DNA of 1,307 nt from the NCBI RefSeq assembly GCF_003334815.1, contig NZ_QOWO01000101.1. One strand, given 5' to 3'. Numbering within the stretch: the first letter of the stretch is position 1; every line of letters begins with the position of its first letter. The notes below the pieces were generated by a model that saw nothing but the letters and a program-made list of their open reading frames with translations, ran no database searches and had not been told where the DNA came from. Both the position numbers and the translations under genes were made by a program. Origin of the DNA: Escherichia coli (GTDB taxonomy: Bacteria > Pseudomonadota > Gammaproteobacteria > Enterobacterales > Enterobacteriaceae). Shown piece after piece: positions 1-1,307 of this stretch.

Positions 1-50
1 GACCCGCCGCAACGACGAAGAGCGCGTGCGCGAAACGGCGTTGCCCCTCA

Positions 51-76
51 CATCCCGGCGGCCTTTTGCCGGGATG
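51..76. other. GC-rich stem-loop (9-bp stem, 8-nt loop)
   Basis: CATCCCGGC (51-59) pairs with GCCGGGATG (68-76); loop GGCCTTTT. A second small hairpin GCGACCG-GAA-CGGTCGC lies at 111-127. Confidence 0.6.
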
Positions 77-290
77 CCGGGAGCGCAGGTCACGGCGCGA
101 CAGAGGCGGCGCGACCGGAACGGTCGCTGCAAGCCCGGGGTTTCGCGTCAGGGATGGAAGCCCGCCAGGGCGGAGACAGCTCCGCTGGCTCCGTTCACGA
201 CAGCCCGCCCCGCCAGGGGGACGCCCGGAAAAGGCATAAGCAGGAGAACAACAAAACAGACAGTAATCAGAGCAGCAGAAAAAAGAAGAA

Positions 291-353
291 CAGTAGCAGT
301 AGCAGTAGCAGTAGCAGTAGCAGTAGCAGTAGCAGTAGCAGTAGCAGTAGCAG
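291..353. repeat. perfect hexanucleotide tandem repeat (AGTAGC)x10, written CAGTAG x10 + CAG; simple-sequence repeat / VNTR-type tract
   Basis: Ten uninterrupted copies of a 6-bp unit at 292-351, with a partial copy on each side, read directly from the sequence. Imperfect AGC/AGA/AAG triplets precede it (271-290). It produces the poly-Ser, (Ala-Val)n, (Ala-Thr)n and poly-Leu runs seen in four ORF-track translations. Confidence 0.97.
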
Positions 354-425
354 GAACAACAACATCAGTAACAAACAAATGACAGGTCTGAAAAGACAGA
401 AGCCCACAGCAGAACGTCCGCGTAA

Positions 426-459
426 TGAAAGGGGCGGCGCGTCAGCGCGGCCCCTTTCA
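426..459. other. GC-rich stem-loop (10 bp + G.G mismatch + 4 bp stem, 4-nt loop)
   Basis: TGAAAGGGGC (426-435) pairs with GCCCCTTTCA (450-459); inner GCGC (437-440) pairs with GCGC (445-448); loop GTCA. Pairing checked base by base. No clean U-tract follows. Confidence 0.7.
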
Positions 460-605
460 GCGCCACCGGCGCGCGGTCTTTTCCCGGCGCGGGCAGACAG
501 GCATTTATCCTCCCGCCTGCCCGGCGTCTTCAGGCCCGCAGACGAATAATCATCATCGGAACACGTGTATAAGCAAACATGCCGCTCGACAGCTCCCCCG
601 GGAAT

Positions 606-637
606 GCAGAAGACGCCAGCAACGTCTTCTGCTGGCG
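606..637. terminator. terminator-like hairpin made of two overlapping, mutually exclusive palindromes; possibly bidirectional
   Basis: GCAGAAGACG (606-615) pairs with CGTCTTCTGC (623-632), 10-bp stem and 7-nt loop. Alternatively CGCCAGCA (614-621) pairs with TGCTGGCG (630-637). On the plus strand it is followed by TGATTTGTT (T-rich); on the minus strand it lies 9 nt past the stop of the 646..888 ORF and is followed by a pyrimidine-rich UCUUCUGCAUU. Neither U-tract is canonical. Confidence 0.35.
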
Positions 638-645
638 TGATTTGT

Positions 646-888
646 TCAGACCTCTGTCGAGCCGATCCATATACCATTCAGATAAGCATCAAATGCATCG
701 TTCCCCTCCTGCACTTCCTGCGGCTGAACAAGGTTCAGGCTTTCGTGTGTCCAGCCGGCTTCAGGTGCAGACACTTTCAGCAGAAGATGCCCATCAGAAT
801 CACGAATCTCCAGATCAGCAAACGTGTTCCCGGTCAGGATATCTGGTTCACCGGGTCGTTGATCTGTAACATATGTGATATATCCCAT
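646..888 (-). CDS. small acidic hypothetical protein, 80 aa
   Basis: Minus-strand ORF: ATG at 886-888 (complement), TGA stop at 646-648. A GGAG Shine-Dalgarno (plus 896-899, complement) lies 7 nt upstream of the ATG. Protein: MGYITYVTDQRPGEPDILTGNTFADLEIRDSDGHLLLKVSAPEAGWTHESLNLVQPQEVQEGNDAFDAYLNGIWIGSTEV, with 14 Asp/Glu against 3 Arg/Lys. The ORF track extends it to a GTG at 916-918, and an in-frame ATG at 901-903 is also possible, but neither has an RBS. A palindromic hairpin begins 9 nt past the stop. The overlapping plus-strand ORFs (565..906, 579..869) are Cys/Arg-rich and lack an RBS, so the minus frame is preferred. No family recognised. Confidence 0.5.
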   Translation of the reverse strand: MGYITYVTDQRPGEPDILTGNTFADLEIRDSDGHLLLKVSAPEAGWTHESLNLVQPQEVQEGNDAFDAYLNGIWIGSTEV

Positions 889-999
889 CCTTTCTCTCCA
901 CATTAAATATTTCAGCACTATCCGGGACGACGGTGCGGCCCGATTTTCGGTACTCCAGAGCCAGTTCAGCCATCAGAGCATCTTTCGCTTAATTTCCTG

Positions 1000-1039
1000 C
1001 CCCCTGATTGCCATTAACAAATCACCAACAATCAGGGGG
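1000..1039. repeat. perfect 11-bp inverted repeat CCCCCTGATTG / CAATCAGGGGG with an 18-bp spacer; function unknown (candidate protein-binding site or RNA stem-loop)
   Basis: Arm 1 at 1000-1010 and arm 2 at 1029-1039 are exact reverse complements; spacer 1011-1028 is CCATTAACAAATCACCAA. It lies 7 nt downstream (minus sense) of the stop of the 1047..1307 CDS. No U-tract follows on either strand, so it is not called a classical intrinsic terminator. Confidence 0.85.
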
Positions 1040-1046
1040 ATAATCA

Positions 1047-1307
1047 TCACACAGGACTGCTCATGGACTGACCGGCCTGTTGGCTGAAAAGCATCATCAG
1101 TGCACTCAAATCACTGGCTTTTTTTCTGATAACTGGCGTGTGATTTTCCACGCTGTCCAACAGCGCCCCCAGTTCATCATTGATTTGCCCTAACTGTTTC
1201 ATCAGCATTTCCGCATCCAGGCTGCTCTGGTATGCAAGATTTGCCTGAACAGCACGATTCTGCATGATGTCGATTTGTGCGATTGCGTCCTTCTGCTGAT
1301 CACCGGT
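1047..1307 (-). CDS. hypothetical protein, C-terminal portion (5' end probably lies beyond the right window edge); predicted alpha-helical
   Basis: Minus-strand frame is open from the window edge (1307) to a TGA stop at 1047-1049 (complement). Visible 86 residues: TGDQQKDAIAQIDIMQNRAVQANLAYQSSLDAEMLMKQLGQINDELGALLDSVENHTPVIRKKASDLSALMMLFSQQAGQSMSSPV. Codon choice looks like a genuine gene of a ~50% GC enterobacterial-like genome (CTG, CAG, GAA, AAA). The in-window ATG at 1263-1265 has no Shine-Dalgarno upstream, so it is probably an internal Met. No protein family recognised from the sequence. Confidence 0.6.
   Translation of the reverse strand, partial: TGDQQKDAIAQIDIMQNRAVQANLAYQSSLDAEMLMKQLGQINDELGALLDSVENHTPVIRKKASDLSALMMLFSQQAGQSMSSPV

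What the first reader, a model, noticed from the sequence alone, without database searches (positions are those of the whole stretch)
1..549. Plus frame 1 is open from the window edge to TAA at 547-549 and would encode an Arg/Lys/Ser-rich low-complexity polypeptide with a Ser20 tract
If real, this would be the C-terminal 182 residues of a protein whose poly-serine linker length is set by the hexanucleotide repeat (...KRHKQENNKTDSNQSSRKKKN-S20-RNNNISNKQMTGLKRQKPTAERPRNERGG...PADE*). However, in the GC-rich part all three plus frames and two of three minus frames are open for more than 75 codons, my manual GC3 estimates (about 70%, 78%, 68% for plus frames 1-3 over 1-240) do not single out a frame, and the translation looks like disordered, non-globular sequence. 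I therefore do not call it a CDS, but it should not be dismissed without a homology search.
Basis: partly seen in the sequence, partly recalled or inferred. Interest (0 to 1): 0.4.

Follow-up and report, generated by a model that had tools for sequence, protein, structure and literature searches.

The report
Spurious ORF beside plasmid ssDNA promoter

Summary
Plus frame 1 is open from 1 to 546, TAA lies at 547-549, and (CAGTAG)10 encodes Ser20. The coding reading does not hold.

- **Location:** The window is the leading region of an IncF-like plasmid, and its + strand is the transferred (T) strand.
- **Anatomy:** Bases 1-48 are the 3' base of the Frpo/ssiD hairpin, whose core lies just left of the window. 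Bases 46-231 form further GC-rich hairpins. Bases 233-377 are a purine-rich tract holding the repeat. Bases 426-523 carry more hairpins, one with four compensatory pairs.
- **Frame not conserved:** I collected about 160 homologous copies. The frame-1 product from ATG154 varies from 20 to 217 aa. 29 of 39 poly-Ser-type copies have TGA or TAA in a hairpin loop where the window has TCA. Seven copies shift to frame 2.
- **No coding signature:** Substitutions show no third-position excess (p=0.92, 0.22, 0.38). The neighbouring ssb, methylase and DUF905 genes in the same loci do (p down to 2e-15).
- **Database matches:** They exist for frames 1 and 2 under the names YubN, yddA, yehA and 'pilus protein'. 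All are ORF calls on this same plasmid DNA.
- **Repeat length:** It ranges from 2 to 16.5 units.

Verdict: an ordinary annotation artefact on a known element. Low interest.

The parts
1..549 (+). Open frame 1 (182 codons plus TAA). The internal ATG at 154 gives a 131-aa ORF. It is the same ORF that is annotated in F as WP_000388237.1 and elsewhere as YubN, yddA or 'pilus protein'. I judge it non-coding.
   Evidence: define the ORF and its database counterparts. Searches show it is not conserved and has no codon-position signal.
1..48 (+). 3' end of a class-1 single-stranded-DNA promoter (Frpo/ssiD type). This is the basal 3' arm of the long T-strand hairpin. The promoter core lies just left of the window.
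   Evidence: Window 2-48 matches F ssiD positions 302-349 at 87.5%. In the fold of close relative L001, window 3-36 pairs with the Frpo 5' arm. Across 66 distinct copies, 95% of cells are paired against 43-46% in slid controls, and 8 pairs covary.
46..135 (+). Three local GC-rich hairpins (46-81, 83-98, 105-135). They include a 14-nt tandem unit, CGGCGCGACAGAGG, that is present in 1-3 copies among homologs. They also include a 5-nt inversion at 117-121 (GGAAC versus GTTCC).
   Evidence: Searches give the folds. Searches show the indels and the loop inversion.
141..231 (+). Compound hairpin that contains ATG154 and the conserved 'N-terminus' of the spurious ORF.
   Evidence: The stems are nearly invariant in 67 sequences.
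1..296 (+). The part that is repeated with each Frpo copy of a plasmid (paralogs 91-96% identical). It is the distal extension of the repeated Frpo module.
   Evidence: It also matches the ends of the published 400-nt Frpo candidates Frpo'5, Frpo'6, Frpo*5 and Frpo*6.
233..377 (+). Purine-rich, T-poor low-complexity tract (72% purine, 10% T).
   Evidence: Every one of 117 distinct copies has such a tract (36-174 nt, 71-87% purine) at this position, built from at least two different repeat kinds plus a mixed remainder.
291..353 (+). (CAGTAG)10.5 microsatellite. Its length is polymorphic, from 2 to 16.5 units among homologs.
426..459 (+). Conserved 15-bp GC-rich hairpin. The loop triplet at 442-444 is TCA here and TGA or TAA in most orthologs, which is a stop in frame 1.
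   Evidence: Four compensatory base pairs separate the poly-Ser-type and F-type copies.
460..523 (+). Two further hairpins, at 460-472 and 490-523.
530..649 (-). 3' remnant (39 codons plus stop) of a class I SAM-dependent methyltransferase gene. The last 20 bases of the frame-1 ORF overlap it on the opposite strand.
   Evidence: PGAP annotation of L002 6243-6362, mapped through. The gene is intact at this position in L004-L007.
646..888 (-). Leading-region gene for an 80-aa hypothetical protein.
   Evidence: No family match was found.
1047..1307 (-). 3' part of a 98-aa hypothetical leading-region gene that runs off the window.

Best explanation
Positions 1-549 are non-coding DNA of the leading region of an F-like conjugative plasmid. 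The + strand is the transferred strand.

From left to right the region holds four things:
- the 3' base of a class-1 single-stranded-DNA promoter hairpin (Frpo/ssiD type; the core lies just outside the window);
- a block of GC-rich local hairpins that is repeated together with every Frpo copy;
- a purine-rich, T-poor tract whose centre is a slippage-prone (CAGTAG)n microsatellite;
- a second hairpin block, which ends at the remnant of the upstream methyltransferase gene.

Frame 1 stays open because GC-rich palindromes and a T-poor tract contain few stop codons. Nothing selects for a protein.

Shown here: the homology, the orientation, the folding with covariation, and the absence of coding constraint.

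Inferred: the extra hairpins and the non-pairing purine tract act at the DNA level. They may let the promoter hairpin fold on its own on the incoming single strand. They may also influence when the complementary strand is made. Repeat length probably drifts neutrally by slippage.
For: - **Context.** The window matches thousands of IncF-type plasmids. Annotated relatives place it between oriT and psiB/ssb, and all the leading-region genes beyond the oriT-adjacent transglycosylase gene lie on the opposite strand. The F nic sequence lies on the window-orientation + strand, upstream of the region.
- **Homology to published Frpo/ssi sequences**.
- **T-strand fold.** The fold of the full module has z = -8.2. 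The long hairpin is 95% paired in 66 copies and has 8 covarying pairs. Hairpin 426-459 has 4 compensatory pairs.
- **No coding constraint.** There are 91 distinct products of 20-217 aa from 142 copies. 29 of 39 poly-Ser-type copies carry a loop stop codon. Seven copies shift to frame 2.
- **Codon-position test.** The three frame-1 segments give 28/29/31, 18/23/30 and 23/33/26. The controls give ssb 42/30/115, methylase 29/23/68 and DUF905 23/12/44.
- **Indels.** Most are not multiples of three.
- **No support from libraries or signals.** No Pfam or NCBIfam family and no sigma-70-like promoter. The AGGG directly abuts ATG154.
- **Both frames are called.** Frames 1 and 2 each have database ORF calls, and five proteins are hybrids of the two frames.
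- **The tract is general.** All 117 distinct copies carry a purine-rich tract built from different repeats.
Against: - The 131-aa ORF has an ATG, and the same frame is open in the F plasmid, where RefSeq annotates it.
- Codon positions in 154-288 lean weakly toward the third position (18/23/30, not significant).
- All homologs were retrieved with an exact 28-nt anchor inside the ORF's 5' part and are at least about 85% identical, so divergence is limited.
- Some 1-nt indels in metagenome contigs may be assembly errors. The methylase control also shows five.
- No expression data were available here.
- The DNA-level roles proposed for the distal hairpins and the purine tract are untested.
Confidence: 0.88

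Rival explanations
1. A real small, disordered, basic protein (the YubN-like ORF) is translated from ATG154. It would be transcribed from the complementary strand after the plasmid becomes double-stranded, and the repeat would set the length of a Ser linker.
For: The ATG and the first ~30 codons are conserved in nearly all copies. The ORF is open in F and annotated there. 712 database ORFs share it.
Against: The conserved 5' part coincides with hairpin stems of the repeated DNA module. Downstream of it the paralogs encode unrelated sequence. Length runs from 20 to 217 aa. 74% of poly-Ser-type copies stop in a hairpin loop. Frameshifted copies exist. There is no third-position bias, unlike the neighbouring genes. 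There is no usable RBS spacing and no promoter. The ORF is antisense to the leading-region genes around it.
Confidence: 0.06
2. The frame is the C-terminal part of a longer protein whose start lies upstream of the window.
For: Frame 1 is open to the window edge. Some gene callers extend ORFs to 220-260 aa.
Against: Upstream lies the Frpo hairpin. Among orthologs, 10 of the 11 indel runs in window 1-153 are not multiples of three, including 1-nt and 14-nt events seen in complete plasmids. The substitution phase is flat at 28/29/31. PGAP can only fit this region as a 'frameshifted, incomplete' pseudogene.
Confidence: 0.01
3. The region acts mainly at the RNA level on the other strand. It would be the 3' untranslated end of the upstream operon, with hairpin 459-426 and the following pyrimidine-rich stretch serving as a terminator or Rho-loading site ahead of Frpo.
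For: The hairpin lies 70 nt past the methylase stop and shows compensatory changes that fit either strand. The minus-strand transcript of 233-377 would be pyrimidine-rich and poor in G. Both strands fold equally well.
Against: No T-run follows the hairpin on the minus strand. The same purine tract and hairpin block follow Frpo copies that have other upstream genes, as in F. The predicted stems contain many G-T pairs on the + strand, which would be A-C mismatches on the other strand. That last point is biased, because the structure was predicted on the + strand.
Confidence: 0.15
4. The hexanucleotide repeat is a contingency (phase-variation) switch.
For: Copy number varies from 2 to 16.5 among close relatives.
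Against: A 6-nt unit cannot shift a reading frame. The repeat lies in no promoter spacer found here. Paralogous copies carry different purine repeats at the same place, which suggests that composition matters and not a counted length.
Confidence: 0.05

Closest known systems
Frpo / ssiD of plasmid F (Masai & Arai 1997, as cited in PMC9849209 and PMC11541004); Frpo1 and Frpo2, the class-1 ssDNA promoters (PMC12672017)
   Same: Window 2-48 is homologous to the 3' end of ssiD. Window 1-296 is 91-95% identical to the sequence following Frpo1 and Frpo2 of F. The strand, the orientation and the position upstream of leading genes are the same.
   Different: Only the basal 3' arm is inside the window. 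The -35/-10 hairpin core lies outside it. The window mostly covers flanking DNA that the papers I read do not discuss. I searched those papers by keyword and did not read them in full.
ssi1-3 / Frpo1-3 of IncI1 plasmid ColIb-P9
   Same: The last 29 bases of ColIb-P9 Frpo3 match window 75-103 (96.6%). The architecture is the same: a repeated hairpin promoter ahead of ssb, psiB and ardA.
   Different: Only about 77% identity over the core. The IncI flanks were not compared here.
Annotated ORFs YubN / yddA / yehA / 'pilus protein' / WP_000388237.1 (F plasmid, 118 aa)
   Same: Same ATG and same first ~30 codons as the window's 131-aa ORF.
   Different: The F version continues through a Lys/Arg-rich tract (a GAA/GAG repeat) instead of poly-Ser and ends elsewhere. 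None has a tested function. Different records call different frames of the same DNA.
Frpo-containing imperfect repeats R1-R3 of pO26-CRL125 (PMC3817090)
   Same: Repeated modules several hundred bp long that contain Frpo and act as recombination substrates in leading regions. The window's locus is likewise rearranged: the methylase gene is truncated and an extra Frpo copy is present.
   Different: Those repeats are in an IncI-type leading region. No purine tract or ORF issue is described in the passages I retrieved.

Membership tests
Protein-coding gene | Reading frame and stop position are conserved among orthologs and paralogs | tested here: not met
   Products run from 20 to 217 aa, with 91 distinct products from 142 copies. 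29 of 39 poly-Ser-type copies stop at the hairpin loop. Seven copies are frameshifted and two have an early stop.
Protein-coding gene | Excess of substitutions at the third codon position | tested here: not met
   Frame-1 segments give p=0.92, 0.22 and 0.38. Controls in the same loci give p=2e-15, 3e-7 and 4e-5.
Protein-coding gene | Ribosome-binding site and promoter in the right place | tested here: not met
   AGGG directly abuts ATG154 with no spacer. No sigma-70-like site lies in the window. The ORF is antisense to the neighbouring leading-region genes.
Protein-coding gene | Homologs beyond the same DNA element, or a known domain | tested here: not met
   All 712 (frame 1) and 184 (frame 2) matches with a source name come from Escherichia, Klebsiella, Salmonella or Shigella records and are ORF calls on this plasmid DNA. 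No Pfam or NCBIfam family matches.
Class-1 ssDNA promoter (Frpo/ssi) | Sequence homology to F ssiD/Frpo | tested here: met
   Window 2-48 matches ssiD 302-349 at 87.5%. In relatives the full 351-nt element continues to the left at 92-96% identity. Only the 3' end is inside the window.
Class-1 ssDNA promoter (Frpo/ssi) | Long stem-loop on the transferred strand | tested here: met
   The fold has z=-8.2. 95% of cells are paired and 8 pairs covary across 66 copies. Window 3-36 forms the basal stem.
Class-1 ssDNA promoter (Frpo/ssi) | -35 and -10 boxes reconstituted in the stem | not tested
   The core lies outside the window, so I did not map the boxes.
Class-1 ssDNA promoter (Frpo/ssi) | Lies on the T-strand upstream of leading genes transcribed toward oriT | tested here: met
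   The nic sequence is on the + strand (the nic sequence itself is from my own knowledge).
Class-1 ssDNA promoter (Frpo/ssi) | RNA polymerase initiates on the single-stranded form | not testable with these tools
   Shown for F by others (PMC9849209).
Phase-variable simple-sequence contingency locus | Repeat number is polymorphic | tested here: met
   2 to 16.5 units.
Phase-variable simple-sequence contingency locus | A length change switches a reading frame or a promoter spacing | tested here: not met
   The unit is 6 nt, there is no real CDS, and no promoter hexamers flank it.
Intrinsic terminator (hairpin 459-426, minus strand) | GC-rich stem followed by a U-run | tested here: not met
   The stem is present, but the terminator scan does not report it on the minus strand and no T-run follows it.

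The most novel reading that the evidence does not exclude
The ~500 nt distal to each class-1 ssDNA promoter would be a working part of the zygotic-induction machinery. That stretch comprises the GC-rich hairpin block, the purine-only repeat tract and a second hairpin block with covariation. On the incoming single strand the non-pairing purine tract would insulate the promoter fold and load SSB. The hairpin blocks would slow complementary-strand synthesis, and the repeat length would tune the duration of early gene expression.
Probability: 0.2. Interest if true: 0.5.

Novelty: already known. Interest (0 to 1): 0.15.

Why it matters
Mainly as a correction. Thousands of plasmid records carry 'hypothetical protein', 'YubN', 'yddA' or even 'pilus protein' calls on this DNA. 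A 68-aa 'single-stranded DNA-binding protein' is also called inside the Frpo hairpin itself. Both are artefacts of open frames in structured, compositionally skewed non-coding DNA. Such calls inflate plasmid pan-genomes and can mislead searches for anti-defence genes in leading regions. A secondary point is that the conserved flank (hairpins, purine tract, covarying hairpin) marks out sequence that studies of ssDNA promoters could delete or swap.

Tried and rejected
- **Rfam.** Only chance-level matches, none near a gathering score.
- **Phage collection.** No match.
- **Genome-contig scan with the 28-nt anchor.** Only 4 loci, mostly contaminated MAGs and of little use. The metagenome scan supplied the data.
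- **Literature search for 'yubN'.** Only noise.
- **RNAalifold on close relatives of blocks 1-240 and 395-560.** No compensatory pairs, because the sequences are too similar. Covariation appeared only when the F-type copies were added and in the Frpo core.
- **Strand choice by folding energy.** -134.5 versus -136.7 kcal/mol, so no discrimination.
- **Rejected readings.** A CDS entering from upstream, the minus-strand poly-Leu ORF 267-677 (another composition-driven frame, and not the methylase-remnant frame), a phase-variation switch and an intrinsic terminator.
- **Family searches for the two neighbouring small genes.** Nothing found.

Full report
**Observation.** Frame 1 of the + strand is open from base 1 to 546 and ends at TAA 547-549. 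The 182-residue translation is rich in Ser, Arg and Ala and holds a run of exactly 20 Ser. The Ser run comes from a perfect CAGTAG repeat of 10.5 units at 291-353. The + strand has only 10-14% T. In shuffles that keep local composition, a fully open frame among the six appears in 11-14% of trials, and the median longest open run is about 127 codons. So the frame is long but not remarkable for this composition.

**Where the window comes from.** The window matches thousands of Escherichia, Klebsiella, Salmonella and Shigella plasmids, mostly conjugative IncF types, and no phage. Annotated relatives place it in the leading region next to oriT. The order there is traM, oriT, a transglycosylase gene, DUF932 and small hypothetical genes, then hok, psiB, a ParB-like gene, DUF905 and ssb. 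Apart from the oriT-adjacent transglycosylase gene, these leading-region genes lie on the strand opposite to frame 1. The F nic sequence, which I know from memory, lies on the + strand in window orientation, upstream of the region. The + strand is therefore the transferred (T) strand, and the leading genes use it as template.

**Relation to the known single-stranded promoter.** Supplementary Table 2 of Samuel et al. (PMC11541004) lists the known Frpo/ssi sequences.
- F ssiD (351 nt) aligns at 92-96% to three places in the close relative L001. Its last 48 bases correspond to window 2-48 at 87.5%.
- The promoter core therefore lies just left of the window.
- The 207-nt CDS annotated there as 'single-stranded DNA-binding protein' sits entirely inside it.
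- Window 1-296 is repeated with each Frpo copy, at 91-96% identity. This includes the regions following Frpo1 and Frpo2 of plasmid F.
- Frpo1 and Frpo2 fold on single-stranded DNA, recruit RNA polymerase and drive early leading-gene expression (PMC9849209). They are now classed as class-1 ssDNA promoters (PMC12672017).

**Structure.**
- Folding the T strand of L001 from the start of Frpo to the end of the GC-rich block gives -151.6 kcal/mol, z = -8.2.
- Window 3-36 forms the basal stem of the long Frpo hairpin. Local hairpins follow at 46-81, 83-98 and 105-135, and a compound one at 141-231 contains ATG154.
- On 66 distinct Frpo copies, 95.1% of cells are paired against 43-46% when partners are slid. 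Eight pairs change on both sides (154 cells), against one or two in the slid controls.
- In the second GC block, hairpin 426-459 shows four compensatory pairs between 32 poly-Ser-type and 23 F-type copies.
- Variation concentrates in loops. A 5-nt inversion GGAAC/GTTCC lies at 117-121, the loop triplet at 442-444 is TCA, TGA or TAA, and a 14-nt unit is present one to three times.

**Is frame 1 a gene?**
- The same ATG154 ORF is annotated in F as WP_000388237.1, 118 aa. 712 database proteins match frame 1 under the names YubN, yddA, 'pilus protein' or hypothetical.
- All named matches come from Escherichia, Salmonella or Shigella records and are calls on this same plasmid DNA. Frame 2 has 184 matches as well, including another 'YubN' and a Klebsiella record. 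Five proteins hit both queries, so they are frame hybrids.
- A 28-nt anchor retrieved about 120 metagenome loci, which gave 161 copies in all. Translating from the ATG gives 91 distinct products of 20-217 aa from 142 copies. Only the first ~30 codons are shared. After that come a poly-Ser, a Lys/Arg-rich or an SSNQSQ-repeat tract and unrelated ends. Seven copies shift into frame 2 and two stop at codon 21.
- Among 39 poly-Ser-type copies, 29 have TGA or TAA in the hairpin loop where the window has TCA. Only six read through to the window's stop.
- Substitutions by codon position are 28/29/31 (1-153), 18/23/30 (154-288) and 23/33/26 (355-546). In the same loci the adjacent ssb, methylase and DUF905 genes give 42/30/115, 29/23/68 and 23/12/44, with p from 4e-5 to 2e-15.
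- Indels that are not multiples of three dominate (10 of 11, 2 of 2, 4 of 5), and some are visible in complete plasmids.
- There is no Pfam or NCBIfam family and no sigma-70-like promoter. The only Shine-Dalgarno-like bases abut the ATG.
- PGAP can fit the region only as a frameshifted, incomplete pseudogene.
- I conclude that the frame is not coding, either from the window edge or from ATG154.

**The repeat and the tract.**
- The perfect CAGTAG run spans 2 to 16 units in the sample and 16.5 in plasmid pEc631_2. The window's 10 is near the top.
- A 6-nt unit cannot change a frame, so frame preservation across strains carries no information.
- Every one of 117 distinct copies has a purine-rich tract (71-87% purine, at most 13% T, 36-174 nt) directly after the conserved module, made of different repeats in different paralogs.
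- Composition, not sequence, is what is shared. I infer a non-pairing spacer on the T strand, but I could not test this.

**Right end.** Positions 530-649 on the minus strand are the last 39 codons of a class I SAM-dependent methyltransferase gene. In ordinary relatives this gene is intact, and the order is DUF3560, methylase, this region, Frpo2, ssb. The window's plasmid type is rearranged, which fits with Frpo repeats acting as recombination substrates (PMC3817090).

**Limits.**
- The homologs are close (85% identity or more) and were fetched with an anchor inside the ORF, so conservation of the anchor itself means nothing.
- Some single-base indels may be assembly errors.
- No expression data were examined.
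- The functional role of the flank is inference.

**Verdict.** The coding interpretation is rejected with about 0.9 confidence. What is there is the known Frpo-type promoter flank with a variable microsatellite. Interest is low. The modest open question is whether the conserved flank contributes to promoter function or to the timing of strand conversion (bioRxiv 10.64898/2026.01.09.698686).

Noticed in passing
L001 5697-5903 (-), L002 5372-5578 (-); just left of the window: A 207-nt CDS is annotated 'single-stranded DNA-binding protein' or 'hypothetical' (for example WP_000547944.1). It lies entirely inside the Frpo hairpin. Roughly half of the 66 distinct Frpo copies carry a 1-nt deletion that puts four stops in it. 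Substitutions by codon position are 20/19/11. It is probably another spurious, misnamed ORF.
   Followed up: partly
window 117-121 and 442-444: Hairpin tips vary by inversion and not by ordinary substitution. GGAAC alternates with GTTCC at 117-121, and TCA with TGA (also TAA) at 442-444. This is the pattern expected from template switching at DNA palindromes. The second case creates or removes the frame-1 stop.
   Followed up: partly
window 93-120: A 14-nt unit, CGGCGCGACAGAGG, is present in one, two or three tandem copies among homologs.
   Followed up: no
window 530-649 (-) and 646-1307 (-): The methyltransferase gene that normally precedes this region is reduced to a 39-codon 3' remnant. 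The remnant is fused behind two uncharacterised small leading-region genes (80 and 98 aa) that have no NCBIfam or PHROG match. The plasmid type carries three Frpo copies, which suggests recombination between Frpo repeats.
   Followed up: partly
window 26-382 (+, frame 2): Frame 2 (118 aa, poly-Ala-Val through the repeat) also has 184 database 'proteins', including a UniRef entry named YubN. Five database proteins match both the frame-1 and the frame-2 query.
   Followed up: yes
window 606-632: A perfect 10-bp hairpin (GCAGAAGACG / CGTCTTCTGC) lies just past the stop of the 80-aa minus-strand gene and inside the methylase remnant. No T-run follows it on the minus strand.
   Followed up: no
L009 (Streptomyces contig, 332 bp), L008 and L010 (Oscillibacter and Collinsella MAG contigs): Exact matches to the enterobacterial plasmid anchor occur in assemblies labelled as unrelated taxa. 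These are most likely contamination or mis-binned plasmid contigs.
   Followed up: no
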